Shown here: positions 12,164-45,069 of the stretch, one piece after another
Layout of the letters: each line of letters starts with the position of its first letter
Position numbering within the stretch: the first letter of the stretch is position 1
Origin: an uncultured Mogibacterium sp.
GTDB lineage: Bacteria > Bacillota > Clostridia > Peptostreptococcales > Anaerovoracaceae
Direction of reading: 5' to 3'
DNA: 46,884 nucleotides
Assembly: GCA_964385855.1 (NCBI GenBank)
Contig: CAYLSR010000001.1
Location: 1 to 46,884, forward strand
Translations under genes and position numbers: made by a program
Notes under the pieces: model-generated
The model's input: only the letters and a program-made list of their open reading frames with translations
Told to the model about the DNA's origin: nothing
Database searches by the model: none

Positions 12164-12179
12164 ACAGGAGGAAATATGA

Positions 12180-13336: not shown

Positions 13337-13346
13337 GGAGGAGATC

Positions 13347-16343: not shown

Positions 16344-16352
16344 GAGGCGGGG

Positions 16353-24431: not shown

Positions 24432-24441
24432 ATAATTGGGC

Positions 24442-24474
24442 GAATCGGCAGTAAATAAAAATACTGCCGAAATA
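24442..24474. promoter_or_regulatory. Palindromic operator-like repeat, copy 2
   Basis: GAATCGGCAGTAAATAAAAATACTGCCGAAATA. It sits between the putative -10 element and the abiEi RBS. Confidence 0.6.
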
Positions 24475-24492
24475 CCGGAAAGGAGGAGCAGC

Positions 24493-25233
24493 ATGGTAGA
24501 TACAAAAGTAATTCTGAACAAGATATGTGATCGAAGCCCGTTTGATCGGTCTGACCTTCAGATAATAATGGAAGAATGCGGCTATCGTACATCAGATAGC
24601 CTGGTGAATCATATGATTTCAAGAATGCTGGCTGCTGGTGAGATTGCACGGATCGGGCGCAACAAATATAGTGTGTCAGGTTCCCGGAAGACGTATCGTT
24701 TTCCGCATTCCGATTTTGCGACATTAGTGGCAGATGAAATTACAGACGCTCATCCGTATCTGGATTTCCGCATTTTTGAGTTGGTACAGCTGAATGAGTT
24801 TGTCAACCATCAGATAGCTCATAACATAGTATTCGTGTCTGTGGAGGGAGAACTGGAAGAGGATGTGTTTAATACACTATGGGAAAAGCATCAGGGATCC
24901 ATTTTGCTTAAGCCGGACGTGAATGAACTATACCGGTATATGACGGAAAATATGGTGGTTATAATAAAACTTCCTACGGAAAGCCCAAAAGGAACGACGG
25001 CTTTCTGGGATACCAGACTAGAAAAAATGCTTGTTGATATTGCGGTTGACAAGTTGCTGGGGAAGATTGTTTATTCCGGGGAATATCCTGCAATCTATCA
25101 GACTGCATTTCTCAGATACGCTATAGACATGAACACAATGTTCAGATATGCAAGGCGGCGCGGCGCTTTTGAGAAATACAGTAGATTCCTTTCCAATGAG
25201 GCTGGCTTGAAGCAGGAGGATTTAGGAATATGA
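24493..25233 (+). CDS. abiEi: AbiEi-like antitoxin / transcriptional regulator (type IV TA, abortive infection)
   Basis: AGGAGGAG RBS upstream. The N-terminus looks like a winged helix. The stop overlaps the start of an AbiEii-family gene (ATGA). Confidence 0.68.
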   Translation: MVDTKVILNKICDRSPFDRSDLQIIMEECGYRTSDSLVNHMISRMLAAGEIARIGRNKYSVSGSRKTYRFPHSDFATLVADEITDAHPYLDFRIFELVQLNEFVNHQIAHNIVFVSVEGELEEDVFNTLWEKHQGSILLKPDVNELYRYMTENMVVIIKLPTESPKGTTAFWDTRLEKMLVDIAVDKLLGKIVYSGEYPAIYQTAFLRYAIDMNTMFRYARRRGAFEKYSRFLSNEAGLKQEDLGI

Positions 25234-26276
25234 TAATCAGAGAGAACTACGGAGAAGAGCATATTCGGGAATTGCAGAACAATAGTCATAAGGATCCGCA
25301 GCTTATAGAACGTGCTTTATATGCGCTTGGTCTTCTTGAGGCTTTGTCACAGACGGGCATGAAGTTCATTTTTAAGGGCGGCAGCAGTCTGATGCTTCTG
25401 CTTCCCCGACTTATGCGATTGTCAACAGATATCGACATCATTGTTGAGCCCGGCACGGATGTGAAACATTATATCAGGAAGGCGGCTGAAATCTTTCCTT
25501 TCGTGTCTTATGAGGAGCAGGTGCGTGTCGGTAAAAACAATATAGAGAAAAGGCACTTCAAGTTCACCTATTTTTCTCCGATCAGGAAGGATTATTTTTA
25601 CATTCTACTGGATATTGTTTTTGAAGAGAATCATTATGCAGCCATTTCAGAAAAGGAAATAAGCAATGAACTGCTGCTGACAGAAGGTGCCAACCTTACG
25701 GTGCAGGTTCCATCTGTTGACTGTATCCTTGGAGACAAGTTTACAGCATTTGCTCCTTATACGACAGGAGTTCCGCTTAGGGCGAAAAAAGACCTTGAAG
25801 TAGTGAAATAGTTTTACGATATCAGTACGCTTATCAATGAATATGAGAATTTTGCTCATGTATTGACCACTTATAAAGATGTCGTTTCTTCTGAAATTGG
25901 TTATCGAGGAATGAACATAACGGCGAGAGATGTCCTTGAAGACACAATATCCGCCGCTATTGTGATAGGTTCCCGAGGGAAGACCGGGAAGGATGACTAT
26001 CCTGCATATGTTGAGGGAATCCGGGGTGTTAGGACACATATTTTTACTGAACGTTTTTCCGGCGAGATTGCTTCATACCGGGCGTCAAACCTGATCTATA
26101 TGGCGGCGTGCCTGATGGCGGAGATACCATACGAACATATTGATAGTTTTGAGGAATATGCGAGCGAACCGCTGACACAAGATGATCTGAAAGTCCTTTC
26201 TAAAATGCGAAAGGCCCAGCCATTGCAATATGCCTATTTAGTAAAGGCCGATATGTTGCTGCGGGAAAACAGATAA
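25230..26276 (+). pseudogene. abiEii: AbiEii/AbiGii-family nucleotidyltransferase toxin gene interrupted by one in-frame TAG (25809-25811)
   Basis: The N-terminal part carries FKGGSSL...RLSTDIDI. ORF 25863-26276 is in the same frame. No other stop lies between 25812 and 25863, and the frame reads ...KKDLEVVK*FYDISTL... Confidence 0.75.
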
Positions 26277-26404: not shown

Positions 26405-27319
26405 ATGAAGAAGAACCAATATAGCAAGAACCCCGTCGGCCCATCCCATCAGGAGCGAATCCAGGCCCTCACCGACCAGCTCGAAGCCGGCGTCCAGGCC
26501 GTCTTCGACAGCGACCGCTACAAGGATTACCTCAGGTGCATGAGCAAATTCCACAGCTACTCGGTCAACAACTGCCTGCTCATCGCCTTGCAGCGCCCGG
26601 ACGCCAGCCTCGTCGCCGGCTACCGCGCCTGGGAGAAGGACCATGGACGTCATGTTCGCAAGGGCGAGAAGGGCATCAAGATCCTCGCTCCCTGCAAGTA
26701 CAAGGTCGAGCTCGACGAGCGGGACGAAAACGGCGAGCCGAAGACGGAGGAGCGGGACGGTTTTCGGGTTGTCACGGTGTTTGACCTCGCGCAGACGGAG
26801 GGTCGCGAGCTTCCGGCGCTCGGCGTGGACGAGCTCACCGGGGATGTCCACGATTATCCGAAGATCTTTCGCGCGCTCACCCGGATCAGCCCGGTGCCGA
26901 TCCGCTTCGAGGACATCCAGAACGGAGCCAAGGGCTACTACAACGATGCGGAGAAGTTCATCGCGATCAAGTCCGGAATGAGCGAGGCACAGACGATCAA
27001 GACGCTTCTCCACGAGATCAGTCACGCCAGATATCACTCCCGGGAGGCGAAGGCTCCGGCTGTTCCGATCGACCGAAACCACAGGGAAACGGAGGCCGAG
27101 AGCCTGGCATTCTGCGTTGGATCCGCGCTGAAGATCGTGGATTCCTCGGAGTATTCCTTCCCGTATCTGGCTTCGTGGGCATCTGGACGGGACACGAAGG
27201 AGCTCCGGGATTCCCTCGAGCGCATCCGCTCCGCAGCCGATGAGATGATCACGGAGATTGAATCCGAGCTTGGCAAAATGCATGACCGCAGTCGCGGTTC
27301 CCGGGAAGAAGGCAGGTGA
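26405..27319 (+). CDS. ardC: ArdC-like protein: N-terminal ssDNA-binding domain plus C-terminal HExxH metallopeptidase-like domain
   Basis: N-terminal ArdC/DUF1738-like region (FH.YS..N..LI..Q...A..VAGY..W......V.KGEKGI.I). Also carries LLHEISHA. Confidence 0.78.
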   Translation: MKKNQYSKNPVGPSHQERIQALTDQLEAGVQAVFDSDRYKDYLRCMSKFHSYSVNNCLLIALQRPDASLVAGYRAWEKDHGRHVRKGEKGIKILAPCKYKVELDERDENGEPKTEERDGFRVVTVFDLAQTEGRELPALGVDELTGDVHDYPKIFRALTRISPVPIRFEDIQNGAKGYYNDAEKFIAIKSGMSEAQTIKTLLHEISHARYHSREAKAPAVPIDRNHRETEAESLAFCVGSALKIVDSSEYSFPYLASWASGRDTKELRDSLERIRSAADEMITEIESELGKMHDRSRGSREEGR

Positions 27320-27323
27320 TCGC

Positions 27324-28250
27324 ATGCCTTTCTTTACCAAAGAGCAGATCGCAAAAGCCAGAGAGCCGGATCTGCTGGCTTTTCTGCAGCGGCACGATCC
27401 GCAGGAACTCGTGCAGGTCTCCGGTACCGAGTACTGCACGCGCACACACGACAGTCTCCGGATTTCCAACGGGAAGTGGTTCTGGTGGAGCCGGGGCTTT
27501 GGCGGCGTGTCCGCTCTCGATTATCTGGTGAAGGTCAAAGGAATCCTGTTCACTGACGCGGTTGCGTTGATCCTCGGGCAGGGAGTCTCGAAAGTGCCGG
27601 AGTTTTCGTCCAATGAAACCGCTTTTTCGTCCAGAAAGCTACTTCTTCCGGACGAAAGCCCGACGCATAATGTGATCCTTCGCTACCTGATCGGCCGTGG
27701 GATCGACCGGGAGATTCTTTAGGGCTGCATCAAAGCGAAGCTCCTCTATGAGTCCCTGCCCAATCATAACTGCGTCTTTGTCGGGTATGATGAGCGCGGG
27801 GAAGCCCGGTACGCAGCTTTCCGGTCCACCAACGGAGAGCGACTTCTGGGCGAGGCGGCAGGTTCCGACAAGCGGTATTCCTTCCGGATTGATGTTCCGA
27901 GCAGCACGCTCCATGTGTTTGAAAGCGCGATTGACCTACTGTCTTTCGCGACAATCCGGAAGCTCTGGGGTGAGAACTGGCTTTCGGATCCGATGGTTTC
28001 GCTGGGAGGTGTGTATGCTTCAGCGGGCAATTTGCGGCCGGGTAAGCTGCCAGTCGCACTGGCAGAGGAACTGAAGAGATATTCCGGAGTGACCAAAGTG
28101 TCGCTTCATTTGGACAATGATTTTGCCGGGCGGCGTGCAACGGAAATGATATCGTTGCATTTGCGCTGCAATTATACAACGATAAATGAGCCGCCGCCCG
28201 CGGGGAAAGATTATAACGATTATCTGCGGTTATCATGCTATACTGAATAA
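27324..28250 (+). pseudogene. DUF3991/Toprim primase-like gene interrupted by one in-frame TAG (27720-27722)
   Basis: The N-terminus (FFTKEQI..A...DLL.FL....P.ELV.VSG..YCTR.HDSL.ISNGKW.W.SRG.GG.SALDYL) matches the DUF3991 pattern I recall. The same frame continues with no other stop (64 codons) into ORF 27915-28250, which has the Toprim-like motifs HVFESAIDLLS...LDND.AG. Confidence 0.75.
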
Positions 28251-28270: not shown

Positions 28271-29008
28271 ATGATCTATATAACCGGTGACACACACATC
28301 CCGATCGACATCCACAAGCTGAGCACCCGCCGCTGGCCGAAGCAGAATAATCTGACCAAAGACGACTATCTGATCGTTTGCGGAGACTTCGGCTTGATCT
28401 GGAATTACCTCGAGACTGGACTGAGTGTGCCGGCCAATCCCGATGACCGGCACTGGGTTCCGGAAGAATTGTTTTGGTACAAGTGGCTGAACGAGAAGCC
28501 GTTCACCACGCTTTGGATCGACGGAAACCACGAGAATTTTGACCGGCTGAAGACCTATCCGGTCACAGAATGGCACGGCGGCAAGGTGCAGAAGATCTCT
28601 GATTCCATCATTCATTTGATGCGCGGGCAGGTCTATGAGATTGATGGGAGCACGTTCTTTACGCTTGGCGGAGCGCGTAGCATCGACCGCGGCCCTGCAA
28701 CCGGAACGGAGAAGAGAGACAGCCATATCATCTGGTGGCCGGAGGAACAGCCTTCGGTCGGCGAGTACGATGAGGCGCTGTCGAACCTCGAAGTGCATGG
28801 AAACAAGGTCGACTATATCATTACGCACGAGGCTCCGCCCAGCATTCTTCTCCAGAAAGGCTATCAGCTGAGCGAGCTTGCGAACTTCCTATGGCAGCTG
28901 AACGACACGGTGGAGTTCGAGCGCTGGTATTGTGGACATCTGCATGAGGATGAGCAGTATGGCAAGGTCAGGGTGCTGTATGATGATATTGTTGTGGTCG
29001 GCGAGTAG
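28271..29008 (+). CDS. Calcineurin-like metallophosphoesterase
   Basis: Motifs GDTH, GDFG, GNHE and GH.H in the canonical order. Confidence 0.8.
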   Translation: MIYITGDTHIPIDIHKLSTRRWPKQNNLTKDDYLIVCGDFGLIWNYLETGLSVPANPDDRHWVPEELFWYKWLNEKPFTTLWIDGNHENFDRLKTYPVTEWHGGKVQKISDSIIHLMRGQVYEIDGSTFFTLGGARSIDRGPATGTEKRDSHIIWWPEEQPSVGEYDEALSNLEVHGNKVDYIITHEAPPSILLQKGYQLSELANFLWQLNDTVEFERWYCGHLHEDEQYGKVRVLYDDIVVVGE

Positions 29009-29227
29009 ATGAATTGCAAGCTATGGACATTCTGCGCGTTGAATTCGGGTTGATCTTGCGCGGGATGAGGTGATTTGGGGCGGAAAAGCCGCAGACGAGG
29101 GATATGTCGGTGAATTCTGTAGCGCGGCCCTTGGGGGTGTGATATGGTGAAAATACAGGGGAGCAACTATCTGGCGCCCTAAACCAAACGATTGAACAGC
29201 GATCATCAACACTCAAAAGAGAATTAT

Positions 29228-29515
29228 ATGAAGCTTATACTCGGCATACTATTATTCATACTGATGATTGGATTTGCAAGCTTCCTTATGCCTGTGATCT
29301 TAGGGATTATAATTGGTATCCTTATGATCAAGAATGGCAGTGTAATCGGTGGCTTGATCGCGATTGGTGTTGGCATTGCAGTCAACGTCGCGGTGGTTTA
29401 TGGCGGTTTCATAGAGGGAGGAGGTTCTTCTGAATACACAGACGAAGAATGTCCTTACTGTGGGAGTGGTGATACTGACGGAAATCACTGTTTTACCTGT
29501 GATAATGACTTTTGA
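29228..29515 (+). CDS. Small membrane protein with a C-terminal zinc-ribbon (CPYC...CFTC)
   Basis: Has 2-3 predicted TM helices followed by CxxC-N9-CxxC. The coding DNA is AT-rich. ATG 29228. Confidence 0.5.
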   Translation: MKLILGILLFILMIGFASFLMPVILGIIIGILMIKNGSVIGGLIAIGVGIAVNVAVVYGGFIEGGGSSEYTDEECPYCGSGDTDGNHCFTCDNDF

Positions 29516-29605: not shown

Positions 29606-30022
29606 ATGAACAATGTAGTATTAATCGGCAGACTCGCCAGAGATCCGGAACTCCGCTACACGCAGAACAACAATACAGCGGTGACGCACATCACCATCGC
29701 GGTTGACCGTCCGCCGCAGCAGGGTCAGGAGAAGCAGGCGGATTTCATCCGTGTCACCGTCTTTGGCCGGCAGGCGGAGACGGTCAACCGGTATCTCAAG
29801 AAAGGCAGACAGGTGGCGGTTCAGGGCAGGATCCAGACGGGCAGCTATAAGAACCGAGATGGCCAGACGGTCTATACGACGGACGTCATCGCGGACCGGG
29901 TGGAGTTTCTCGGTAGCGGCAACGATAGCAGTGGAGGTGGTATCGGCAGAGGTCCGGTGGAGACAGAGGATCCTGGGTTCCCGGATGCATTCCAGGCAAC
30001 GGATGATGATATCCCGTTCTGA
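29606..30022 (+). CDS. ssb: Single-stranded DNA-binding protein
   Basis: OB-fold N-terminus (VVLIGRLARDPELRYT), a Gly-rich linker, and the acidic tail DDDIPF. Confidence 0.93.
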   Translation: MNNVVLIGRLARDPELRYTQNNNTAVTHITIAVDRPPQQGQEKQADFIRVTVFGRQAETVNRYLKKGRQVAVQGRIQTGSYKNRDGQTVYTTDVIADRVEFLGSGNDSSGGGIGRGPVETEDPGFPDAFQATDDDIPF

Positions 30023-30172
30023 GGGGAGTTGGGCAGCTCCCCGGCGGCTTGAAGCGAAAAATGTCCCACTAGCTATAAACAAACGAAAAGGCGTTTGGGG
30101 ACACGCTGTTTTCAAAAAAGTACAGAGCTTTGAGAGAATGCGGATAACCGTTCCCGTACAGGAGGCAGGGTC

Positions 30173-30640
30173 ATGCTTTTAATCGTAATACTATTCTTCG
30201 CGGGCTTTGTCTGGCTAACCATTGAACTCGACCGGGCAAGCATCCGAAAAGCAACGAAGAAAACGGAAGAAATCCATCGCGAGTATTACAAGAAGGTCGA
30301 TGAGATTTACGATGACCCGCTTGTGAGAAGCAGGGAGAAAGCGTTTGCGGACAAGCTGATCCGGGACACGTGGCGGGAGGCTGGTGTAGAATACCAACCG
30401 GAGAAACCTTTGCCGAAAGAAGAAGAGTACGGTGCACTTCATCCCGATGAACTGGATAAACTCGCGAATGAGTACAAACGTAAAATGATGAGGATAGAAA
30501 AGGTAGAAGAGGTTCTGAGACCAATTTACGGTGACGAATGGAGAGAGCACTACGATGAGTACATGGAGTTGCTTGAGATTGCAGCAGAGAAACAGATCGA
30601 TAAGCTAAGAAAGAGTACGGATGATAGAAGAAAGCAGTAA
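30173..30640 (+). CDS. Hypothetical membrane-anchored coiled-coil protein (155 aa)
   Basis: AGGAGG lies 7 nt upstream. The protein has an N-terminal TM helix followed by a charged helical region. Confidence 0.55.
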   Translation: MLLIVILFFAGFVWLTIELDRASIRKATKKTEEIHREYYKKVDEIYDDPLVRSREKAFADKLIRDTWREAGVEYQPEKPLPKEEEYGALHPDELDKLANEYKRKMMRIEKVEEVLRPIYGDEWREHYDEYMELLEIAAEKQIDKLRKSTDDRRKQ

Positions 30641-30675: not shown

Positions 30676-32349
30676 ATGAGAAACAAAAATCTAGCTGTAC
30701 TTACAGACACACTTGCTATCTGTGAAAAGGGGTATTATATATGCGGTTCTGTAAGAGTTAATCTGACGTTGAGCAAAGACAGAATGAAGGCAGCACAGGT
30801 GTATGAACCGTGGCAGGTGGAAAAGCTTAGAAAGGAAAAGCGGCCCGAACACTCCTATCAAGGTGGCACATGCAGTTATTCGGTAGTAAACACGGATTCT
30901 TTTTCGCTTGCGAGAAAAGTTGCGGCAGATAATCCGGGGGATAAAGTGCTTGTCCTGAATCTTGCAAACAGCACACATATCGGCGGTGGTGTCCGCCATG
31001 GAGCAAAGGCACAAGAGGAAGATCTATGTAGACAGAGCTCTCTGTTGGTTGCACTCGAGGGCGAGAACGCTGCTGGCTATTACGAATATAACCGTAAGCA
31101 TAAAACAGACATGGGATCAGATGCATTGATCGTCGTCCCTGAAGTTGAAATCATCAAAGACGCTGATTATGAGTATCTGGATCACACAACTGTCGTTTCT
31201 GTCATTACTTGTGCTGCGCCAGTACTCCGATCCGGCCCACCTTCAGATGAAGGAGCGTACAGACAACTGATGTATCATCGTATTGAAGGCATACTGGTTG
31301 CGGCTGCTTATCATGGTTATAAGCGGCTTGTCCTCGGCGCTTTCGGATGCGGAGCGTTCAATAACGATGCAGTAGTGGTAGCAGAAATCTTCTTCAATGT
31401 GATAAAGAAATTCAGCTTTGACGGTGCGGGAGTGAATGATCTGTTCAAAAGCATCGACTTTGCAGTGCTCACCAAGCCTGACAAGACATATAATTATGAC
31501 GAGTTTAATAAGTATTTCGGCGATCATGATGCTGTCAAGCATCAGACAGAGGACAAGAAATATCCAAGCCTCGGATTCATAGGCTTTTGGCACGAATATG
31601 AAAACTACGGATTTTTGAGCAACTGGTACAAAGCGGAATTTGAGTATGCCGGAAAGCATTTTACTTCCGTCGAACAGTTCATGATGTACCATAAGCTTAT
31701 GACGTTCCATCAGTTTGACCTTGCGGACAAAGTGATGGCAACCAATGATCCTGCTGAAGCAAAGAAGCTTGGCAGAACGCCGTTCAGCAACTTTGACGAC
31801 AAGCTGTGGACCAGAATCAGTCCTGTCATTGTGAAGCGCGGTGTCAGAGCCAAGTTTGAACAGAATCCCGGACTCTTGAAGCAATTGCTGGCAACCGGTA
31901 ATGCCGTTCTTGCGGAGTGCTCACCATATGATAAGATCTGGGGTATCGGCTTAGCTTTTGGTGATCAGGCACTTGATACATTTCAGTGGAAAGGCAAAAA
32001 TCTGCTCGGCCGAATTCTGATGGTTCTCCGGGAGGAATTCGGGAATTGGGTTGCTGACCCGAACAGAAGCATACCATCGTACATTGATGTAAGAGAGCTT
32101 CCTCCAATACCGGCGTGGGAAATGAACACCGGAATGCTCAAGATGGTACCGCAGTATCATGACGCGATTGACGCATATAGTGCAACACTCAAAGGACCGG
32201 AAGTATCAGACTTCTATGCGATGAGCTTCTCGGGACTTGAGCAGGCTATGCGGACGAACATGGGCGGCGGCATGCCGGTGATCGGTTTCTATGAGATGAA
32301 GCAGGAAATATATGATATCTCACGAAGGCTTCCGAAGGAGCTGATATGA
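30676..32349 (+). CDS. Fusion protein: bacterial-type PARG/TIGR02452 macrodomain, a NADAR (YbiA/DUF1768) domain, and a ~110-aa C-terminal domain of unknown function
   Basis: PARG signature GGG-X7-QEE (HIGGGVRHGAKAQEEDLCRQSSL). NADAR-like FLSNW...F.SVEQ...K...F.......P.EAKKLGR...VRAKFEQNP.L...L..T....L.E.....D..WG......GKNLLGRILM.LREE. Confidence 0.85.
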   Translation: MRNKNLAVLTDTLAICEKGYYICGSVRVNLTLSKDRMKAAQVYEPWQVEKLRKEKRPEHSYQGGTCSYSVVNTDSFSLARKVAADNPGDKVLVLNLANSTHIGGGVRHGAKAQEEDLCRQSSLLVALEGENAAGYYEYNRKHKTDMGSDALIVVPEVEIIKDADYEYLDHTTVVSVITCAAPVLRSGPPSDEGAYRQLMYHRIEGILVAAAYHGYKRLVLGAFGCGAFNNDAVVVAEIFFNVIKKFSFDGAGVNDLFKSIDFAVLTKPDKTYNYDEFNKYFGDHDAVKHQTEDKKYPSLGFIGFWHEYENYGFLSNWYKAEFEYAGKHFTSVEQFMMYHKLMTFHQFDLADKVMATNDPAEAKKLGRTPFSNFDDKLWTRISPVIVKRGVRAKFEQNPGLLKQLLATGNAVLAECSPYDKIWGIGLAFGDQALDTFQWKGKNLLGRILMVLREEFGNWVADPNRSIPSYIDVRELPPIPAWEMNTGMLKMVPQYHDAIDAYSATLKGPEVSDFYAMSFSGLEQAMRTNMGGGMPVIGFYEMKQEIYDISRRLPKELI

Positions 32350-32490
32350 AGAACAAATAATCAAACACTCCTTACATCTCCAATCAGGCCGCATGTCTGG
32401 CCATTTTGATGATAATCATTTCGGGCCAGGCTTTCAGCCTGGCATTTCCCATGTTTGGGGAAGAAAATGATATATGGTAAAAAAATACGG

Positions 32491-32519
32491 TTGAAAACCA
32501 CCTATTTCTTTGATATACT
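32491..32519 (+). promoter_or_regulatory. Strong sigma-70-type promoter for phd-doc
   Basis: TTGAAA (32491-32496), a 17-nt spacer, then an extended -10 TGATATACT (TATACT at 32514-32519). Confidence 0.55.
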
Positions 32520-33752: not shown

Positions 33753-34111
33753 CAGTGCCGGATTCCGGAGACAAAACCGGAGGAGTAACGGAGGTGCAAC
33801 GGTTGATTTTGTCCGCCGGAATCGGAGGGGTAATGTAGGTGCAAACGGCCATTTCACAGGCCAAAACTGCAGGTGTCACACAGGAGCTCCCGGCCATTTC
33901 CGCACCCATAAGGAGAGGAGCAGCACAGGTGTCAAAAAAGCCGGTTCCCCAAGCCTGGCAGCACCCGCCAACTTTAGCAAGCACTGAATCGTATCTCCTG
34001 CGGATCCACGATTCGGAAACTTGGTGGCAAGCCCCCAAACCCCCGGTGTCCGGCTGCCGGATGGAGTCCGGCGCATGTGATCAAAAGAGAGAAAGGAGCA
34101 ACACAAGAGCA
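33753..34111. other. Repeat-rich non-coding region upstream of mobC/relaxase; candidate oriT
   Basis: Direct repeats: GTAAYGKAGGTGCAA(A)CGG at 33785-33802 and 33830-33848; CGGCCATTTC at 33846 and 33891; CAGGTGTCA at 33870 and 33926. Inverted repeat GAATCGT-N15-ACGATTC at 33986-34014. Confidence 0.35.
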
Positions 34112-34435
34112 ATGAAGAGAACCATCAAAAAGGCCTTCTGGGTCAACCGGAAGGAAGCGGACGACCTCCGCAGGAAGGCAGAATCCGCCTGCTTGACTGA
34201 GTCGGAATTCATGAGACAACTGATTACAGGATATATTCCGCCGGCAAAACCGGATGAGCGGTTTTACCGGGCGATGGATATCATCCGCGAGATGGCGGAT
34301 GCTGTCGATGAGATCGCGATGAAGGCGGACGGTCCGGTCAACATGATCGCGATCATGACAGAAGCGAAGAAGTGGCGGATGCTGCAGAATGCTCTGGAGA
34401 AGGAGTTTCTTCGCCCGAAGAGGAGTGATGCGTGA
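34112..34435 (+). CDS. mobC: MobC-like relaxosome accessory protein (ribbon-helix-helix)
   Basis: GAAAGGAG RBS upstream. The motif F.V...EA..L..KA.....TESEF.R.LI fits this family. The stop overlaps the relaxase start. Confidence 0.68.
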   Translation: MKRTIKKAFWVNRKEADDLRRKAESACLTESEFMRQLITGYIPPAKPDERFYRAMDIIREMADAVDEIAMKADGPVNMIAIMTEAKKWRMLQNALEKEFLRPKRSDA

Positions 34436-35793
34436 TGGCAGTGACCAAGATCTGGAACATCCGGAACCATGCCGGCGCGGCGCTTTCCTATGTGGCAGAC
34501 CCGGAGAAGACGCTGAGGGAATTCTCGGAGTCCGAACTGCAGGCGCTTGCGGATGTCATCGCTTACGCTGCGAACGAGGACAAAACCGAACAGCTTTTCT
34601 ACACCACAGGGATCAACTGCAGCGTGGACTTTGCCAGAGACCAGTTTGATACGGTCAAGATCCGTTTTGGTAAGTTGGGCGGTAATGTCGCCTATCACGC
34701 CTATCAGAGCTTCAAAGGCGATGAAGCAACACCGGATGAAGCACACAAAATCGGCGTACAGCTTGCGAAAGAGCTCTGGGGTGACCGGTTTCAGTGTGTC
34801 GTCGCGACGCATGTGAACACAGATAATGTCCACAACCACATTGTGATCAACAGTGTGTCGTTCCGGGACGGGAAGAAGTTTTATGACTCCAAAGACATGT
34901 ACCGGAAGATCAGAGAAACTTCCGACCGCATCTGCCGAGAGCACGGGTTGTCTGTCGTGGAGGAACCGAAGGGCAGGGGCGTCAGCAAATACCTCTACAC
35001 CATGGAGAAAGCTGGCATGCCGACGCGGTACAATGTCGCGCGGCAGGCGATCGACGAAGCGGTCAGCCTCAGCGTCAATATGGAGGAATTTAAAGCAGAA
35101 CTCCGGCTGCGCGGTTACCGTTACCAGTTTAATCACAACAGGAAGTACTGGACTGTCACGCCACCCGGCTGGACGAAGCCGATCCGCGTCCATCAGCTGG
35201 GTGAGGAATACAGCAGGGAGCGGATCGAGCAGCGGGTCTATGAGAACGATGCAAGTGTCCGGCAGGAGAGGCTGCGCCAGCAATATCACGTCCCAAACCA
35301 TTACAATCTCCGGCGCAGGATCGACCGCATCATGGGGCGGTCCGGGCTAGAGAAGCTGTATCTCCGTTACTGCTACGAGCTCGGCTACCTCCCGAAGTAC
35401 CGGCAGAGCCCAACAAAACTGCATATCGTCCTGAAGGAAGATCTTCTGAAGTGCGATCAGTACTCGGAGCAGGCGAAGCTCCTGTCCCGCTATCACATCA
35501 GCACGGATGAGGATCTTTCTTCATTCATGGGAAAAGCAGAAGCGCGCATTGCGGAGATCACCGCGCAGAGAGAAGAGCTTCGCAGAAAGGCGAAGCGCGT
35601 CCTTCCTGAAGCCGAGATTATGAAGACCAAAGAAGAGATCAAAACACTCACCGCGGAACTGAAGGATCTTCGGCATGAGGCCAAGGTCGCGAAGCAGATT
35701 GAGGAGCGGTCAGGGCATGTCAGGGAGAATCTGGAGATTGTTGATCGTGAACGAAACGTTTTACCACTGTGCATAGATTCGGTATCTCGCTAA
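34435..35793 (+). CDS. Relaxase/mobilisation nuclease (MobA/VirD2 family)
   Basis: Conserved HAYQSF and the histidine triad region H.NTDN.HNHIVINSV. Confidence 0.88.
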   Translation: MAVTKIWNIRNHAGAALSYVADPEKTLREFSESELQALADVIAYAANEDKTEQLFYTTGINCSVDFARDQFDTVKIRFGKLGGNVAYHAYQSFKGDEATPDEAHKIGVQLAKELWGDRFQCVVATHVNTDNVHNHIVINSVSFRDGKKFYDSKDMYRKIRETSDRICREHGLSVVEEPKGRGVSKYLYTMEKAGMPTRYNVARQAIDEAVSLSVNMEEFKAELRLRGYRYQFNHNRKYWTVTPPGWTKPIRVHQLGEEYSRERIEQRVYENDASVRQERLRQQYHVPNHYNLRRRIDRIMGRSGLEKLYLRYCYELGYLPKYRQSPTKLHIVLKEDLLKCDQYSEQAKLLSRYHISTDEDLSSFMGKAEARIAEITAQREELRRKAKRVLPEAEIMKTKEEIKTLTAELKDLRHEAKVAKQIEERSGHVRENLEIVDRERNVLPLCIDSVSR

Positions 35794-36636: not shown

Positions 36637-37467
36637 ATGACAGAGAACAGGGATTTTGGTAAGGACGGTTACCGGCAGCAGAAGCAGCAGGAGCGGGAAG
36701 AGGTCTTTGGCATGCTGGACGAGGCGATGGAGGCGCTCTCGCAGCCAATCGGTCTGAAGGCCTACGCGGATGTGCAGAGCAGGCTGATGAGCCTCTCGGT
36801 CTCAAACGCGCTTCTTGTGATGAAGCAGCGGCCGGACGCGAAAATGCTCCGGACATACGATGAGTGGAAGGAACAGAACATCTCCGTGAAGAAGGGGGAG
36901 AAAGGGGTCCTTGCTCTGCAGGGTGAAGAGTACACCAAGGAGGATGGTTCCGCCGGGAGGGCGTCGAAGGTCGTCCGACTCTTCGACATCAGCCAGACGA
37001 ACGCTGAGGGAAGGGAAATCCGACAGGTTGCTCCCGGGAAGTTTCTCCGGGAGATGACTGCGACATCTCCGGTTCCGGTTGTGCTGAAGGATGATCTGCT
37101 GAAGGGCACGGAAGGCTTCTATCATGAGACGTCCGGTGCGATCCTGCTCCGGGAAAACCTGCCGGAGGCATCCAAAGTCTTCGTGCTCGCCAGAGAGCTT
37201 TCCCTGATCGAGATCGCCGGTGAGTCCGGTAGATCGGGACAGGAGGCGCACGCGATGGCGGAGCTTTCCGCGTATCTTCTTACGAAGCGGTGCGGGCTTG
37301 AGCCGCCGCAGTTGATCTTCCCGAGGATCATGCGGTCATTCGAAGGCAAGACTGCGCAGGAAATCCGCAGTGATCTCAGCGATGCGAAGCGCGCGGCTTC
37401 TTCGATCGATTATCCTTGCCGGGAGTACCGGAAGAAGCAGCGGGAGCAGAGTCAGGAGGGCAGGTGA
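36637..37467 (+). CDS. Second ArdC-like ssDNA-binding protein with a degenerate peptidase motif
   Basis: Paralogous pattern to 26405-27319 (S.SN.LL...QRPDA......Y.EW.....V.KGEKG...L). Has ARELSLIE in place of HExxH. Confidence 0.6.
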   Translation: MTENRDFGKDGYRQQKQQEREEVFGMLDEAMEALSQPIGLKAYADVQSRLMSLSVSNALLVMKQRPDAKMLRTYDEWKEQNISVKKGEKGVLALQGEEYTKEDGSAGRASKVVRLFDISQTNAEGREIRQVAPGKFLREMTATSPVPVVLKDDLLKGTEGFYHETSGAILLRENLPEASKVFVLARELSLIEIAGESGRSGQEAHAMAELSAYLLTKRCGLEPPQLIFPRIMRSFEGKTAQEIRSDLSDAKRAASSIDYPCREYRKKQREQSQEGR

Positions 37468-39741: not shown

Positions 39742-41898
39742 TCAGCTCTTTTGCTCTGTCCCGTTCAACGCTCTGTATTCACTTGGCGTCATACCAGTCA
39801 CCTGCTTGAATACACGCATGAAGTTCTGTACCGTGGTGAAGCCAACTTCCGTATAAATATCTTTGATTAGCACATTCTTATTCTCCAACGCCTGACGCGC
39901 ATTGTTGATGCGGGTTTCATTGAGAAACTGATTGACACTCTTTCCATAGGTCTCCTTAAACAATCGCCCAAGATAGCTGTCATTGATACCGACGTACTCT
40001 GCGATTGTTGACATGGAGAGATTCGGATCCGCGTAGTTTTCAAGAATGTATTTTCTTGCATTGTGGACATAACGGTAGGACCGGCTGCGCAATTTGTCGT
40101 GGAGACTGGTGATAATTCTATCATGCAGGGCAACAACATTTTCCCGCAGAAGCTCCACTGATTCAGTCTGATCCGTTTCTTTTTCCAAAGGATCAGATTC
40201 AATAAGTGAATACGAGGCAGCAGACGCCCATAGCGCACGCTGGAGTTCCTGATAGCAGGAGGCTTTCAGGTCTTGCGGCATGGAATCGATTTGCAGAAGC
40301 AGGTGGTGAAAAGCGGCGGTTTCCGCATCTTTATTCATATCATACATTTTAGATACATATTCACTGACAGATGCGGAAATCCCTCTCTGGTATTCTGTGT
40401 AGTCGACAATAGAAGAATTGACCATTCCGCTGTAAGTGTTCCGAAATGCGGAAGAGAGTTCCCTAAGATCGTGAAATAGCTGGCTGATTGCAACATTCCG
40501 GCCAGTCATACCCTGAGTATTGATTTCAATCAAATTGCGGTAATGCCTGAGAAATGTTTTGGTCAGCTCGGCAGTTTCATGGCGATCCTGTATTAGCGTC
40601 AGAAGGTTAAACCTGTAAGGGAACGAGTAGGCAGTCATTTCAGGGTATTGCTGACGGTTTAATTCACTGCAGATTTCCGGAAGTTTGTTCTGATCCAAAA
40701 TACCAGTGGAGAGATCTGAAGTAACGAACAGATAGAAATTCCCTGTGCGGGTATAGGAGCTGCCGGTTGCGGAAAGAATGTACGGCAAAACATCTTCCGG
40801 AATGGTCTCTTCATTCAGAAGATCGGCAAGCAGATGGTTCAGAATTGGCTCCGGTACTGCTTCCAGTACACGCCGGTATTCAGTGTTCCGGGAGATGTGT
40901 TTTCCAATAACAGTCCATTCGTTCTCATTTACAGGAACCGGATCATCGAGTTTGTTGACGACATCCCGCATTGGACGATAGATAACTTTTGCGGCAGCGA
41001 AAGCCGCATACCCTGCAACCAGAAGGAGCAGCACGAGCGTCAGCAACAGCCAGGCACTGCTGTAGATGCCAAAAATAGAGAAGGTGATCGGCGTATAACA
41101 GTAATAGTAATCCAAAGATGTCTTGGCGGAATGAGCGTAGAGGATTACCGCATCATCGGTTTCCCGGATGCTGGATTCCTCATATAGTTCCGGATACATC
41201 TGATCCAAAAGTTCCAGATTGAAAGAAGCAGGCAGCTGGAACAGGATTTTGCCGTCAGCGGTTATGATTGCGATGTGATTATCAAGCAGATTCAGGGTTT
41301 GCGCAATCAGGTCTTTGTTCAGCTCTACGAGAATCGTTGCGCCGCCGGAATACCCTGGCAGATAAGAAACCCGGGTATAGATATTGCCGTCCTGTGTCAG
41401 AAGATCAAAGCCCTGGTTGCCGATGGGATTGACAGATTCGGCAGAAAAGAGATTCGCGCAAGTCGTGTCATCTAATGACTTGACCCACATATTGGAGCTG
41501 TAGACACAGTGATTGTCTTTCACATAAATCATGATACTGTTGATGTAATGATTGGAATTCGCGATATCACAAATGAGAGTGAGGAGCTCATCCGTACGTT
41601 CTTCATCGGATCGTTTGATGGGATCTGTTACAGCCCTCAGTATGGTTGAACTGAACATCATATTCCAGACGGTATCATCTGCAGACGAGATGATGGAATC
41701 CATCGTATTAGTGATCTGATTCAGTGTCTGCTCATTATAGGTGCGAGATAGCTGTTTCCAGTTTGAATATTGGACATACGAAAGAATGAACTGGAACAAA
41801 ACCAGCAGCACAAGAATAACACAGAGTATAGATAGGAAGTTGCGCCACAGCACCGTGCGGAATTTGCGGAATCTTGTAGGCATTTTACACACCCTCAT
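39742..41898 (-). CDS. Membrane-bound sensor regulator with a C-terminal AraC-type HTH domain
   Basis: 718-aa protein with an N-terminal TM helix, an extracytoplasmic region, a second TM helix, and a C-terminal dual-HTH AraC signature (...IAEYVGINDSYLGRLFK...GFTTVQNFMRVFKQVTGMTPSEYR). Confidence 0.85.
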   Translation of the reverse strand: MRVCKMPTRFRKFRTVLWRNFLSILCVILVLLVLFQFILSYVQYSNWKQLSRTYNEQTLNQITNTMDSIISSADDTVWNMMFSSTILRAVTDPIKRSDEERTDELLTLICDIANSNHYINSIMIYVKDNHCVYSSNMWVKSLDDTTCANLFSAESVNPIGNQGFDLLTQDGNIYTRVSYLPGYSGGATILVELNKDLIAQTLNLLDNHIAIITADGKILFQLPASFNLELLDQMYPELYEESSIRETDDAVILYAHSAKTSLDYYYCYTPITFSIFGIYSSAWLLLTLVLLLLVAGYAAFAAAKVIYRPMRDVVNKLDDPVPVNENEWTVIGKHISRNTEYRRVLEAVPEPILNHLLADLLNEETIPEDVLPYILSATGSSYTRTGNFYLFVTSDLSTGILDQNKLPEICSELNRQQYPEMTAYSFPYRFNLLTLIQDRHETAELTKTFLRHYRNLIEINTQGMTGRNVAISQLFHDLRELSSAFRNTYSGMVNSSIVDYTEYQRGISASVSEYVSKMYDMNKDAETAAFHHLLLQIDSMPQDLKASCYQELQRALWASAASYSLIESDPLEKETDQTESVELLRENVVALHDRIITSLHDKLRSRSYRYVHNARKYILENYADPNLSMSTIAEYVGINDSYLGRLFKETYGKSVNQFLNETRINNARQALENKNVLIKDIYTEVGFTTVQNFMRVFKQVTGMTPSEYRALNGTEQKS

Positions 41899-42197
41899 TT
41901 CATTTCTCGCCGGTCAATTGAATTATATTACAGGCAAAAAATCCCATTCAAGCACAATGAACAAAATAAGTGAAAAATATCCAAACCCATGAACATTATT
42001 TGAAATCAGGAAGATAGGCGGAATCCATTCAGAATCGGTTTCTTTTCCGTAAGTCTCAGCACTTCTATAATACAATCAAGGAATAGCGGGAACAAAGTTA
42101 TCATAGGTTTGGTTTCTTCCCGCTTTTGTATGAAGGGATTATCCGGAACAGGCCGGATAATCGGAAGGCAGTTACAGAAGAGAAAGGAGAAGGCGAA

Positions 42198-43226: not shown

Positions 43227-43262
43227 TGAGAAGCGGCGGTTTGCCTGAGAAGGAGGAAATCG

Positions 43263-43781
43263 ATGGGTCATTTTTTCGAAAAATCCAGGAAAGCCTTCAA
43301 CACCATCGTCGATATTCTCGGTTTTGCAGCTATGGCAGTGATTGTTGTATCTTGCTTTGCACAGGTTATCTATCGGTATTTCTTCGGGAAATCCATCTTC
43401 TGGGCAGAAGAAACATCCATTTACCTTATGATATGGATTGCGTTCCTCGGCGCTGCGAAAGCCACCGCCAATCAGGAAAACACCAGATTGGGATTTGTTG
43501 TCAAAGCGCTTCCGAAGAAGCTGGGAATCACAGTTGAAGTTCTGGCGCATCTGTGTATGATCGGATTTTCTACCATCATAACTATATATGGATTCGCGCT
43601 TGCATCAACGCAGTGGGTGCGCACCAGTGTTTCAACCGTCCTGCCGATGGCCCTCGTATATGGGGCACTGCCAGTCTGTTCCATTTTCATGGTTCTGTTC
43701 ACTGTATTCGCCCTGATTGAATGCATATATAAGGGCAGCAACAAAGGAAAGGGAGCGGATGGAAAGGAGGTCACACCATGA
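43263..43781 (+). CDS. dctQ: TRAP transporter small permease (DctQ family)
   Basis: 172-aa protein with four predicted TM helices, located between dctP and dctM. The 3' end overlaps dctM. Confidence 0.8.
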   Translation: MGHFFEKSRKAFNTIVDILGFAAMAVIVVSCFAQVIYRYFFGKSIFWAEETSIYLMIWIAFLGAAKATANQENTRLGFVVKALPKKLGITVEVLAHLCMIGFSTIITIYGFALASTQWVRTSVSTVLPMALVYGALPVCSIFMVLFTVFALIECIYKGSNKGKGADGKEVTP

Positions 43782-45040: not shown

Positions 45041-45069
45041 CGAACTGAGAAAGTGGGGGAAATTGGAAC

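What the first reader, a model, noticed from the sequence alone, without database searches (positions are those of the whole stretch)
30676..32349. PARG-type macrodomain fused to a NADAR domain plus an unknown C-terminal domain: candidate ADP-ribosylation-reversing counter-defence effector on the ICE
The 557-aa protein combines two domain families that each remove or process ADP-ribose.
- The bacterial PARG/TIGR02452 macrodomain is identified by the signature GGG-X7-QEE, seen as HIGGGVRHGAKAQEEDLCRQSSL.
- The NADAR/YbiA domain is identified by VRAKFEQNP...GKNLLGRILMVLREEF.
- A further ~110 residues (about 32020-32349) match nothing I recognise.

The gene sits with ssb, ardC-like, primase-like and radC genes on the side of the candidate oriT opposite the relaxase. 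In conjugative elements that is where early-expressed anti-defence genes tend to cluster.

Macrodomains and NADAR domains are both known to reverse nucleic-acid and protein ADP-ribosylation, including DarT-type DNA ADP-ribosylation. A tandem eraser delivered early into a recipient could neutralise ART-based toxins or defences, or degrade ADP-ribose-derived signals. The upstream TM/coiled-coil gene (30173-30640) may be co-transcribed.
Basis: partly seen in the sequence, partly recalled or inferred. Interest (0 to 1): 0.72.

Follow-up and report, generated by a model that had tools for sequence, protein, structure and literature searches.

The report
Fused ADP-ribose erasers on a conjugative element
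A gene on a gut-bacterial conjugative element fuses two intact enzymes that strip ADP-ribose tags to a previously undescribed helper module; it probably shields the element or its host from ADP-ribosylating toxins, but that role is untested.

Summary
ORF 30676-32349 (+, 557 aa) encodes a bacterial-type PARG macrodomain (res ~8-280) and a YbiA-type NADAR domain (~301-458). Both pass curated cutoffs and keep their catalytic residues. The last ~90 residues (462-552) form a conserved, confidently modelled helical module with no Pfam, PHROG, PDB or BFVD match. In 51 of 52 informative hits it directly follows a NADAR domain.

The gene lies ~1.8 kb from a NikA-like/relaxase pair, on the side opposite the relaxase. 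It is co-oriented with ssb, an ArdC-like gene, Toprim and RadC genes and two toxin-antitoxin pairs. oriT itself was not shown.

Relatives (at least 574 loci in gut/rumen Clostridia) combine PARG, ARH, NADAR and Macro domains in many orders, up to four in one chain.

The counter-defence reading is plausible but only partly supported.
- In two related elements the gene sits downstream of the coupling-protein gene, not on the leading side.
- The broader family is mostly chromosomal, often next to SIR2-type genes.
- No ADP-ribosyltransferase partner and no single-strand promoter were found.
- No sequenced plasmid or phage carries the fusion.

Verdict: a new variant of a known kind, of moderate interest.

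The parts
30676..32349 (+). Complete gene for the 557-aa PARG-NADAR-X protein (ATG start, stop included)
   Evidence: ORF list. There are 842 homologues with E<=1e-5; the closest are 60-75% identical over 99% of the length.
30676..31530 (+). Bacterial-type PARG macrodomain (res 1-285). Key motifs: G103-G105, Q113-E114-E115, and the diphosphate loop G221-AFGCGAFNND-231.
   Evidence: PF10021 E 3.6e-29. TIGR02452 at 157.5 bits, cutoff 50. 3SIG E 6.6e-27, aligned motif by motif. Foldseek to 3sih: TM (target) 0.85. The motif residues are invariant in 16 homologues.
31531..31575 (+). Variable, probably disordered linker (res 286-300)
   Evidence: AF2 pLDDT is below 50 over res 289-318. This is the poorly conserved, gapped stretch of alignment A1. 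In relatives an ARH domain is inserted between PARG and NADAR at about this point.
31576..32049 (+). YbiA-type NADAR domain (res 301-458). Catalytic equivalents are E333, K340 and E414; ligand-contact equivalents are K363, R367, W378, D419 and W422.
   Evidence: PF08719 E 3.8e-44. TIGR02464 at 139.5 bits, cutoff 73.7. 8BAU E 3.7e-19. Residues were mapped by hand onto those described in PMC11543638. All are invariant or >=90% conserved in A1.
32059..32331 (+). NADAR-associated C-terminal helical module 'X' (res 462-552), of unknown fold family
   Evidence: No Pfam match, no PHROG match, no PDB sequence match, no PDB fold match and no BFVD match. AF2 gives pLDDT 84.1 and pTM 0.74, with six helices. 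The profile finds 114 representatives; 51 of the 52 long enough to judge have NADAR directly upstream. The module is acidic and rich in aromatic residues.
32384..32443 (+). Two hairpins just after the stop codon (32384-32402 and 32425-32443); likely end of the transcription unit
   Evidence: Terminator-like site in the scan. DNA fold of 32350-32499 gives z -2.8 on the + strand and -2.4 on the - strand. A promoter-like site with an extended -10 for the Phd/Doc pair follows at 32491-32519.
29606..30640 (+). Upstream co-oriented genes: ssb (29606-30022) and the TM/coiled-coil gene (30173-30640). They are possibly co-transcribed with the eraser.
   Evidence: SSB PF00436 E 1.1e-34. The gap to the eraser start is 35 nt, with GAGGG 10 nt upstream of the ATG. 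The TM gene is not conserved next to homologues.
28271..29515 (+). Two genes that recur with the eraser elsewhere: a metallophosphoesterase (28271-29008) and a small TM/Zn-ribbon protein (29192-29515)
   Evidence: PHROG 1649 metallo-phosphoesterase, E 3.3e-33. A 63%-identical homologue lies in L004. The TM/Zn-ribbon gene is 61% identical to the gene directly upstream of the eraser in L006 and 51% identical to one in L004.
33753..34111 (.). Intergenic region upstream of the NikA-like gene: inferred location of oriT. It holds an 8-nt inverted repeat (33761-33768 / 33816-33823) and two similar GGAGG..GTAA.G.AGGTGCAA(A)CGG units.
   Evidence: Inverted repeat and sequence. The location is inferred from the usual oriT-NikA-relaxase arrangement (PMC11541004). 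No nic site was identified.
34112..35793 (+). Relaxosome genes marking the lagging side: NikA-like (about 34112-34435) and a MobA/VirD2 relaxase (34432-35793)
   Evidence: PF21983 E 6.4e-09 and PF03432 E 2.5e-40.

Best explanation
The gene encodes one polypeptide with two different, intact ADP-ribose-removing enzymes and a NADAR-specific accessory module.

**Shown here.**
- Domain identities, conserved catalytic residues and predicted folds.
- Location on a conjugative element, 1.8 kb from the relaxosome genes on the non-relaxase side, in one co-oriented gene string with ssb.

**From published biochemistry of relatives.**
- NADAR enzymes cut the N-glycosidic bond of guanine-linked ADP-ribose on DNA and RNA.
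- Bacterial PARGs cut O-glycosidic ribose links: poly-ADP-ribose, 2'-OH RNA ADP-ribose made by RhsP2, and phosphate-end ADP-ribose.

**Inferred.**
- The fusion is a broad-spectrum eraser for nucleic-acid (and possibly protein) ADP-ribosylation.
- On this element it is made early in a new recipient, together with SSB. There it strips ADP-ribose that DarT-like or other ADP-ribosyltransferase defences or toxins put on the incoming single strand and its first transcripts.
- The acidic, aromatic-rich X module is inferred to tune NADAR substrate choice or to bind a partner protein. This is the weakest step.
For: **Domains and catalytic residues.**

**Published activities.**
- PMC11543638: NADAR reverses guanine ADP-ribosylation, including the Glu-type P. 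nicotianae enzyme.
- PMC11833690: NADAR acts on G-ADPr RNA; bacterial PARG acts on 2'-OH and phosphate-end ADPr and protects cells from RhsP2.
- PMC11825919: phage NADARs neutralise DarTG1.

**Context in this window.**
- ssb, ArdC-like, Toprim, RadC, AbiE and Phd/Doc genes are all on the + strand and run toward the NikA/relaxase pair.
- This layout matches the leading-region pattern of PMC11541004.

**Guild behaviour.**
- A stand-alone Macro or ARH gene sits directly next to the gene in L001-L006, L086 and L091.
- Fusions with ARH and/or Macro are common.
- Such combinations make sense if breadth of linkage coverage is what is selected.

**Mobile or variable-DNA contexts.** 7 of 12 subclade contexts.

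**Phages.** PARG and NADAR are clustered as separate genes on jumbo-phage contigs L139 and L166.
Against: - No activity was measured.
- oriT and the transferred strand are inferred.
- No Frpo-like hairpin was found upstream.
- In the two other conjugative-element occurrences the gene is downstream of the T4CP gene. That is on the late-entering side if oriT is placed as in this window.
- The broader family is largely chromosomal and often next to SIR2/GNAT/AMP-binding genes, which suggests endogenous writer-eraser systems.
- The NADAR scores as the YbiA/riboflavin-type equivalog domain. It has Glu, not the Asp typical of DarT1 antitoxins.
- The NADAR also matches a candidate defence component, PDC-M42C.
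- The fusion is absent from 72,556 plasmids and 50,697 phages.
Confidence: 0.45

Rival explanations
1. Host-protecting cargo. The enzyme works in the established host, not during transfer. It acts as an orphan immunity or defence enzyme that reverses ADP-ribosylation by incoming toxins, such as Rhs/T6SS/T7SS-type ADP-ribosyltransferase effectors of competitors or phage Alt/Mod-type enzymes. The element carries it because it benefits the host.
For: - Bacterial PARG protects cells from the RhsP2 RNA ADP-ribosyltransferase (PMC11833690).
- In L009 and L005 the gene sits in the cargo slot after the T4CP gene. In this window that slot holds metabolic cargo.
- McrBC is the neighbour in L091, a TIR-kinase lies nearby in L088 and an EndoU toxin gene lies nearby in L001.
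- The NADAR matches the PADLOC candidate PDC-M42C. NADAR proteins have been validated as defence proteins (PMC13092281).
Against: - In this window the gene is not in the cargo slot. It is in the ssb/ArdC/toxin-antitoxin string next to the relaxosome genes.
- NCBIfam's NADAR anti-phage model scores 50.8 bits against a cutoff of 240.
- PDC-M42 partner genes were not looked for.
Confidence: 0.27
2. Signal degrader. The two domains destroy small ADP-ribose-derived immune signals or toxins (2'cADPR/3'cADPR, His-ADPR, ADPr-phosphates) made by TIR/Thoeris-like systems, not macromolecular adducts. PARG would cut ribose-ribose O-glycosidic bonds and NADAR would cut N-glycosidic bonds.
For: - Iyer et al. 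2022 (PMC9503650) propose this role for tandem NADAR and Macro domains in DNA viruses.
- The ribose-ribose glycosidic link of 2'cADPR is chemically like the PAR link (my own knowledge; not tested here).
- TIR-domain genes occur near some relatives.
Against: - None of the papers found here shows a PARG or NADAR cleaving these signals. The one enzymatic degrader the search returned uses a RyR domain (PMC13232231; abstract only).
- Every measured NADAR and bacterial PARG activity in the papers read here is on macromolecular ADP-ribose.
Confidence: 0.12
3. Endogenous regulatory eraser or metabolite-repair enzyme. The protein reverses ADP-ribosylation written by the cell's own SIR2- or Tpt1-type enzymes, or it cleans up O-acetyl-ADP-ribose and riboflavin intermediates. 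Its place on the element would then be incidental.
For: - The commonest neighbours of the wider family are SIR2 (14 proteins), GNAT (10) and AMP-binding (7).
- A Tpt1/KptA-like neighbour was seen.
- The NADAR passes the TIGR02464 cutoff, described as 'riboflavin biosynthesis intermediates N-glycosidase'.
- An isochorismatase/nicotinamidase-like neighbour lies in L088 and a YgjV gene in L086.
Against: - The SIR2 operon belongs to the PARG-only clade, not to the PARG-NADAR-X subclade.
- Pfam shows no SIR2 or ADP-ribosyltransferase gene in the parts of this window that were scanned.
- The subclade recurs on mobile DNA.
Confidence: 0.1

Closest known systems
Bacterial-type PARG (TIGR02452 / PF10021; T. 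curvata 3SIG, D. radiodurans 5ZDA, S. coelicolor SCO0909)
   Same: Same fold and the same catalytic GGG-X7-QEE loop and diphosphate loop. The whole macrodomain of about 280 residues is present.
   Different: The characterised enzymes are stand-alone proteins of ~250-280 aa. Here the domain is the N-terminal third of a three-module protein on a conjugative element. Identity to the solved structures is only ~27-33%.
NADAR hydrolases (P. nicotianae NADAR 8BAU, E. coli YbiA 2B3W, DarG1 of DarTG1, phage T4 AdfN)
   Same: NADAR fold with the conserved Glu/Lys/Glu triad and ADP-ribose contact residues. Like phage AdfN, it is an 'orphan' eraser on a mobile element with no cognate toxin gene beside it (PMC11825919).
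   Different: It has Glu (YbiA type), not the Asp of DarT1-associated antitoxins. It is fused to PARG. It carries the C-terminal X module, which is absent from all characterised NADARs. Schuller et al. describe most NADARs as free-standing.
Tandem NADAR+Macro proteins of DNA viruses (Iyer, Burroughs, Anantharaman, Aravind 2022, PMC9503650)
   Same: Two unrelated ADP-ribose-processing domains in one chain on a mobile element. Those authors interpret this as complementary bond specificities used against host NAD/ADPr-based immunity.
   Different: That survey does not use the term PARG (0 occurrences) and concerns viruses, not conjugative elements. Here the macro-fold partner is the PARG type. 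The fusion was found in neither INPHARED nor IMG/VR; in phages PARG and NADAR are separate genes.
Leading-region anti-defence genes of conjugative elements (Samuel et al. 2024, PMC11541004)
   Same: It lies within a few genes of the inferred oriT on the non-relaxase side, co-oriented with ssb, ArdC-like and toxin-antitoxin genes.
   Different: No ADP-ribose eraser family is named in that paper's text or in its held supplements. The position is not conserved in related elements. No ssDNA promoter was detected.
DarG (macrodomain plus C-terminal DarT-binding domain)
   Same: An eraser enzyme followed by a non-catalytic C-terminal domain. In DarG that domain binds and neutralises the toxin (PMC11543638).
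   Different: No sequence or fold relation of X to DarG was found. The only solved NADAR or macrodomain chains that matched did so through the catalytic domains. No DarT gene is adjacent. The analogy is only a lead for what X might do.

Membership tests
Bacterial-type PARG (PF10021 / TIGR02452) | Profile score above the curated cutoff over the whole domain | tested here: met
   PF10021 at 102.5 bits (cutoff 23.5). TIGR02452 at 157.5 bits (cutoff 50), model positions 2-266 of 266.
Bacterial-type PARG (PF10021 / TIGR02452) | Catalytic loop GGG-X6-8-QEE with the two glutamates, and the diphosphate-binding loop | tested here: met
   G103-G105, Q113, E114 and E115 align with the GGG...QEE loop of 3SIG. 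The 3SIJ E115A mutant differs at exactly this glutamate. GAFGCGAFNND aligns with GAWGCGVFGND. All are invariant in A1.
Bacterial-type PARG (PF10021 / TIGR02452) | Macrodomain fold | tested here: met
   Foldseek to 3sih gives E 3.5e-15, TM (target) 0.85 and rmsd 3.2. Caveat: the catalytic loop region (res 97-113) has pLDDT below 50 in the model.
Bacterial-type PARG (PF10021 / TIGR02452) | Hydrolysis of poly-ADP-ribose or other O-glycosidic ADP-ribose links | not testable with these tools
   This needs an enzyme assay.
NADAR superfamily, YbiA subfamily (PF08719 / TIGR02464) | Profile score above the curated cutoff | tested here: met
   PF08719 at 151.2 bits (cutoff 35.1). TIGR02464 at 139.5 bits (cutoff 73.7).
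NADAR superfamily, YbiA subfamily (PF08719 / TIGR02464) | Conserved Glu and Lys (E43/K50 of P. nicotianae) and the subfamily-defining Glu (E125) in the last strand | tested here: met
   E333, K340 and E414, mapped by hand from the 8BAU alignment onto the residues named in PMC11543638. All are invariant in A1.
NADAR superfamily, YbiA subfamily (PF08719 / TIGR02464) | NADAR fold | tested here: met
   Foldseek gives 8bau E 1.2e-05 with TM (target) 0.62, and 2b3w with TM (target) 0.67. Part of the domain (res 410-441) is modelled with low confidence.
DarG1-type antitoxin of DarTG1 | Adjacent DarT1 ADP-ribosyltransferase gene | tested here: not met
   No ADP-ribosyltransferase family was found in any Pfam-scanned neighbour in the window. 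None appears in the annotated neighbours of subclade homologues.
DarG1-type antitoxin of DarTG1 | Asp at the catalytic position (D171 of E. coli C7 NADAR) instead of Glu | tested here: not met
   The equivalent residue is Glu (E414), which is the YbiA type.
Leading-region anti-defence gene (sense of Samuel et al. 2024) | Within the first ~30 ORFs from oriT on the side opposite the relaxase | tested here: inconclusive
   It is the fourth gene counting away from the NikA/relaxase pair on the non-relaxase side. However, oriT and nic were only inferred.
Leading-region anti-defence gene (sense of Samuel et al. 2024) | Oriented so that the transferred strand is the template | tested here: inconclusive
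   The gene has the same orientation as the relaxase operon and as all the ssb/ArdC/toxin-antitoxin genes. That is the expected pattern, but the transferred strand was not determined.
Leading-region anti-defence gene (sense of Samuel et al. 2024) | Frpo/ssi-like single-strand promoter upstream | tested here: inconclusive
   DNA folds of the intergenic regions on the inferred T-strand give z-scores from +0.41 to -2.40, similar to the opposite strand. No homology search with known Frpo elements was possible.
Leading-region anti-defence gene (sense of Samuel et al. 2024) | Gene family enriched in leading regions across elements | tested here: not met
   Of three conjugative-element occurrences, only this window has the gene on the leading side. 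L009 and L005 have it after the T4CP gene. The sample is very small.

The most novel reading that the evidence does not exclude
The conserved C-terminal X module is a new partner-binding or substrate-targeting domain that turns NADAR into a dual-mode neutraliser, acting by both enzymatic reversal and direct binding (as in DarG). On this view the PARG-NADAR-X protein, with its neighbouring Macro and ARH genes, is a portable 'universal antidote' to ADP-ribosyltransferase-based immunity and warfare. Conjugative elements of gut Clostridia would express it on entry to protect their single-stranded DNA.
Probability: 0.2. Interest if true: 0.8.

Novelty: new variant of a known kind. Interest (0 to 1): 0.55.

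Why it matters
ADP-ribosylation of DNA and RNA (DarT1/2, RhsP2, Scabin-like toxins) is a recently recognised weapon in bacterial immunity and competition. Conjugative DNA enters as single strand, which is the substrate of DarT enzymes. If this protein is an entry-phase eraser, it would be the first ADP-ribosylation-reversing anti-defence function described for conjugative elements. It would also explain how elements spread among gut Clostridia that carry such systems.

Whatever the role, the family gives natural fusions of up to four eraser types in one chain. That makes it a ready-made panel for working out which eraser handles which linkage. The X module is also a defined, unannotated domain that could be given a family entry.

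Tried and rejected
1. **X as a known fold.**
   - No significant match in Pfam at E<=1, PHROGs, a PDB sequence profile (best E 0.19), Foldseek PDB (best E 3) or BFVD (best E 4.3).
2. **X as a free-standing protein.**
   - Rejected. Most ~100-aa hits start with MEVREEL, the last NADAR helix, or are fragments.
3. **The upstream TM/coiled-coil gene as a conserved partner.**
   - Rejected. No homologue lies beside any relative.
4. **An ADP-ribosyltransferase partner in the window.** None was found.
5. **Frpo-like ssDNA promoter hairpins.** No signal above the opposite-strand control.
6. **The fusion on known plasmids or phages.**
   - Absent from both collections. Only single domains were found, on 129 plasmids and 799 phages.
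   - IMG/VR holds only separate PARG and NADAR genes.
7. **Contexts of NADAR-X proteins without PARG (P0136, P0129).** The contigs are too short to say anything.
8. **28271-29008 against Pfam, PDB and PADLOC.** Nothing useful. PHROGs identified it as a metallophosphoesterase.
9. **General mobile-element linkage of the whole family.**
   - Rejected by the neighbour census and the marker BLAST.
   - The linkage holds only for the PARG-NADAR-X subclade.
Full report
**1. The observation**

The ORF is at 30676-32349 on the + strand, starts with ATG and encodes 557 aa.

Evidence for a bacterial-type PARG macrodomain:
- Pfam finds PARG_cat_microb at res 11-162 (E 3.6e-29).
- NCBIfam gives TIGR02452 over res 8-279, at 157.5 bits against a cutoff of 50.
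- phmmer against PDB sequences finds T. curvata PARG 3SIG (E 6.6e-27) and D. radiodurans PARG.
- The AF2 model of the whole protein (mean pLDDT 72.7) superposes on 3sih with TM (target) 0.85.

Evidence for a NADAR domain:
- Pfam finds NADAR at res 304-455 (E 3.8e-44).
- NCBIfam gives TIGR02464 over res 302-454, at 139.5 bits against a cutoff of 73.7.
- phmmer against PDB sequences finds P. nicotianae NADAR 8BAU and E. coli YbiA.
- The model superposes on 8bau with TM (target) 0.62.

**2. Catalytic competence**

- **PARG.** G103-G105, Q113-E114-E115 and the diphosphate loop GAFGCGAFNND (221-231) align with the corresponding T. curvata residues. They are invariant in an alignment of 16 homologues.
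- **NADAR.** I mapped the 8BAU alignment onto the residues described by Schuller et al. (PMC11543638), using chain index = residue number + 2.
  - E43 corresponds to E333, K50 to K340 and E125 to E414.
  - K75, R79, W89, D130 and W133 correspond to K363, R367, W378, D419 and W422.
  - All are invariant or at least 90% conserved.
  - Glu at the E125 position puts the domain in the YbiA subfamily, not the Asp-type subfamily of DarT1 antitoxins.
  - The Glu-type P. nicotianae enzyme does hydrolyse guanine-ADP-ribose.

**3. The C-terminal module (X)**

- Residues ~462-552 are strongly conserved. P479, K489, P492, Y494, Y501, G537, F538, E540, Q543 and D547 are invariant.
- A profile of this stretch finds 114 cluster representatives among 1.84 billion proteins, 61 of them at E<=1e-10.
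- All ten longer hits scanned with Pfam have a NADAR domain directly before X. The architectures are NADAR-X, Macro-NADAR-X, DUF6508-NADAR-X and NADAR-X-RNA-polymerase-alpha-CTD.
- In a local HMM census, 51 of the 52 hits long enough to hold a NADAR have one.
- The apparent stand-alone copies start inside the last NADAR helix and are truncated gene calls.
- AF2 on an 18-sequence alignment gives a confident helical bundle (pLDDT 84.1, pTM 0.74).
- The module has no significant match by fold in the PDB (best E 3) or BFVD (best E 4.3). It has none by sequence in Pfam, PHROGs or PDB chains.
- It is acidic (net charge -8 to +1) and rich in aromatic residues. That speaks against a simple nucleic-acid-binding role.
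- Its function is unknown. A role in NADAR substrate selection or in partner binding is inference only.

**4. Context in the window**

- 5.0-14.8 kb holds phage late genes: Gp19, tail tube, holin and a GH25 endolysin.
- From ~17 kb on, a Gram-positive-type conjugative element follows. All genes listed here are on the + strand:
  - ParB, a T-Q-ester adhesin, RadC, AbiEi/AbiEii, and ArdC-N plus metallopeptidase;
  - Toprim, a metallophosphoesterase, a TM/Zn-ribbon protein, SSB and a TM/coiled-coil protein;
  - the eraser, then Phd/Doc and DUF3846;
  - a 360-bp gap, then the NikA-like gene, the MobA/VirD2 relaxase, DUF3801, ArdC-N, the T4CP and a TrbC-like pilin;
  - a low-GC cargo block, then VirB6-like.
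- Samuel et al. place the relaxase on the lagging side next to oriT and take the first ~30 ORFs on the other side as leading. By that convention the eraser is the fourth gene on the leading side, in the right orientation.
- I could not identify a nic site. The gap holds only an 8-nt inverted repeat and two similar ~24-nt units.
- The eraser starts 35 nt after the TM gene. Two hairpins follow it, and then a promoter-like site for Phd/Doc. It is therefore probably the last gene of a unit that may begin at or before ssb.
- DNA folding of the intergenic regions gave no strand-specific hairpin of the Frpo kind.

**5. Relatives**

- 842 proteins match at E<=1e-5.
- At least 574 loci in GTDB species representatives match. 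All of the best 79 are from gut or rumen Clostridia.
- The architectures are combinatorial:
  - PARG alone; PARG-ARH; PARG-ARH-NADAR; PARG-ARH-Macro;
  - PARG-ARH-NADAR-Macro (L061, 1054 aa) and NADAR-PARG-ARH-Macro (L075, 1108 aa);
  - PARG-NADAR; PARG-NADAR-Macro; PARG-NADAR-X; NADAR-X; and X followed by DUF6508.
- In loci of the window's own subclade, a further eraser gene often lies directly alongside:
  - Macro in L001-L004, L006 and L091;
  - ARH in L005 and L086.
- This behaviour, collecting erasers with different bond specificities, fits selection for breadth.

**6. Is it a mobile-element gene?**

For the PARG-NADAR-X subclade I have 12 distinct contexts:

| Context | Loci |
|---|---|
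| Conjugative element, leading side | this window |
| Conjugative element, between T4CP and VirB6 (VirB6 77% and T4CP 67% identical to the window's) | L009 |
| Conjugative element, ~8 kb downstream of the T4CP gene end | L005 |
| Within 10 kb of a large serine recombinase | L004, L092, L085 |
| Next to McrBC | L091 |
| No mobile-element hallmark | L001-3, L006, L086/87, L088, L093 |

- Two window genes travel with the eraser elsewhere.
  - The metallophosphoesterase is 63% identical to a gene in L004.
  - The TM/Zn-ribbon gene is 61% identical to one in L006 and 51% to one in L004.
- For the wider family the picture differs.
  - A Pfam census of 150 neighbours (two genes on each side, 43 loci) is led by SIR2 (14), GNAT (10) and AMP-binding (7). 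No mobile-element family is in the top 25.
  - BLAST with this window's conjugation proteins hits only a few loci.
- No PLSDB plasmid or INPHARED phage carries the fusion.
- IMG/VR has 111 relatives. Most are PARG-only genes on large phage contigs. PARG and NADAR are separate, clustered genes on two jumbo-phage contigs.

**7. Interpretation**

*Well supported.* This is a bifunctional, probably active ADP-ribose eraser with a NADAR-specific accessory module, carried as an accessory gene of a conjugative element.

*From the literature.*
- NADARs remove guanine-linked ADP-ribose from DNA and RNA (PMC11543638, PMC11833690).
- Bacterial PARGs remove 2'-OH and phosphate-end ADP-ribose from RNA and protect against RhsP2 (PMC11833690).
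- Phage NADARs defeat DarTG1 (PMC11825919).
- Tandem NADAR+Macro proteins in viruses have been proposed as counter-defence (PMC9503650).

*Inference.* The entry-phase counter-defence role on this element rests on position and neighbours only.

*What weakens that inference.*
- The gene's variable position in related elements.
- The lack of a detectable single-strand promoter.
- NADAR domains also occur in defence systems.

*Probabilities I assign.*
- Counter-defence acting on macromolecular ADP-ribose: 0.45.
- Host-protecting immunity or defence cargo: 0.27.
- Degradation of ADPr-derived signals: 0.12.
- Endogenous regulation or metabolite repair: 0.10.

**8. Novelty**

- Both catalytic families and the idea of multi-eraser proteins on mobile elements are known.
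- Three things were not described in the literature I could search:
  - the PARG-type/NADAR fusion family, with its ARH and Macro permutations, in gut Clostridia;
  - the X module;
  - the placement of such an eraser in the ssb/ArdC/toxin-antitoxin string next to the relaxosome genes of a conjugative element.
- NCBI records name relatives only as 'TIGR02452 family protein'.
- I rate it a new variant of a known kind, with interest 0.55.

Noticed in passing
window 5045-14774: A phage late-gene block (Gp19-like, tail tube, holin, GH25 endolysin with a PG-binding domain) lies directly upstream of the conjugative-element genes. The window therefore spans a prophage end abutting or nested with the element. 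The boundary (about 14.8-17.1 kb) and the 462-aa reverse-strand ORF 15771-17159 remain unannotated: PADLOC and PHROGs gave no hit, and Pfam was not run on that ORF.
   Followed up: partly
window 39742-45849: A lower-GC cargo block (AraC-family regulator, an unknown 402-aa protein, a TRAP transporter DctM subunit and an HpcH/HpaI aldolase) sits between the TrbC-like pilin gene and the VirB6-like gene. In the related element L009 the same slot holds the PARG-NADAR-X gene, so this looks like a cargo insertion hotspot of this element family.
   Followed up: partly
window 25230-26276: The AbiEii toxin gene is split into two ORFs: 25230-25811 matches positions 1-193 of a 344-position PADLOC model, and 25863-26276 matches positions 213-343. 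The AbiEi partner (24436-25233) is intact. This is probably a disrupted toxin gene.
   Followed up: no
window 26405-28250: An ArdC-like gene (ArdC-N plus zincin/M78 peptidase, 26405-27319) is followed by a primase-like region broken into ORFs 27258-27722 and 27915-28250 (Toprim). This may be a frameshift or a pseudogene. A second ArdC-N-like gene lies after the relaxase (36637-37467).
   Followed up: no
window 28271-29515; L004 3192-4001 and 5306-5587; L006 9462-9905: A metallophosphoesterase (PHROG 1649) and a small TM protein ending in a CPYC...CxxC zinc ribbon recur beside PARG-NADAR-X genes in other loci. They may form a small travelling accessory module. Their role is unknown.
   Followed up: partly
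L044-L051, L054 and similar loci (GTDB Clostridiales/Lachnospiraceae MAGs): PARG-only relatives (~335-385 aa) sit in a repeated gene set: two paralogous SIR2-like genes, an AMP-binding (adenylating) enzyme and a GNAT acetyltransferase. It looks like an uncharacterised chromosomal writer-eraser operon.
   Followed up: partly
L061 4919-8083; L075 40-3366: Single ORFs combine four ADP-ribose eraser domains: PARG-ARH-NADAR-Macro (1054 aa) and NADAR-PARG-ARH-Macro (1108 aa).
   Followed up: partly
P0136 / L089 469-2304: A NADAR-X protein is fused to a bacterial RNA polymerase alpha C-terminal domain (PF03118). This hints that some family members are tethered to DNA or to the transcription machinery.
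   Followed up: no
window 33753-33850: Upstream of the NikA-like gene there are two similar units, GGAGGAGTAACGGAGGTGCAACGG and GGAGGGGTAATGTAGGTGCAAACGG. An 8-nt inverted repeat (GATTCCGG / CCGGAATC) has its arms around the first unit. These are candidate relaxosome binding sites; the nic site is not identified.
   Followed up: partly
L139 9800-11875; L166 9995-12479 (IMG/VR contigs of 401 kb and 317 kb): Jumbo-phage contigs carry separate PARG (290 aa) and NADAR (~170 aa) genes in one cluster, with one or two small genes between them.
   Followed up: partly
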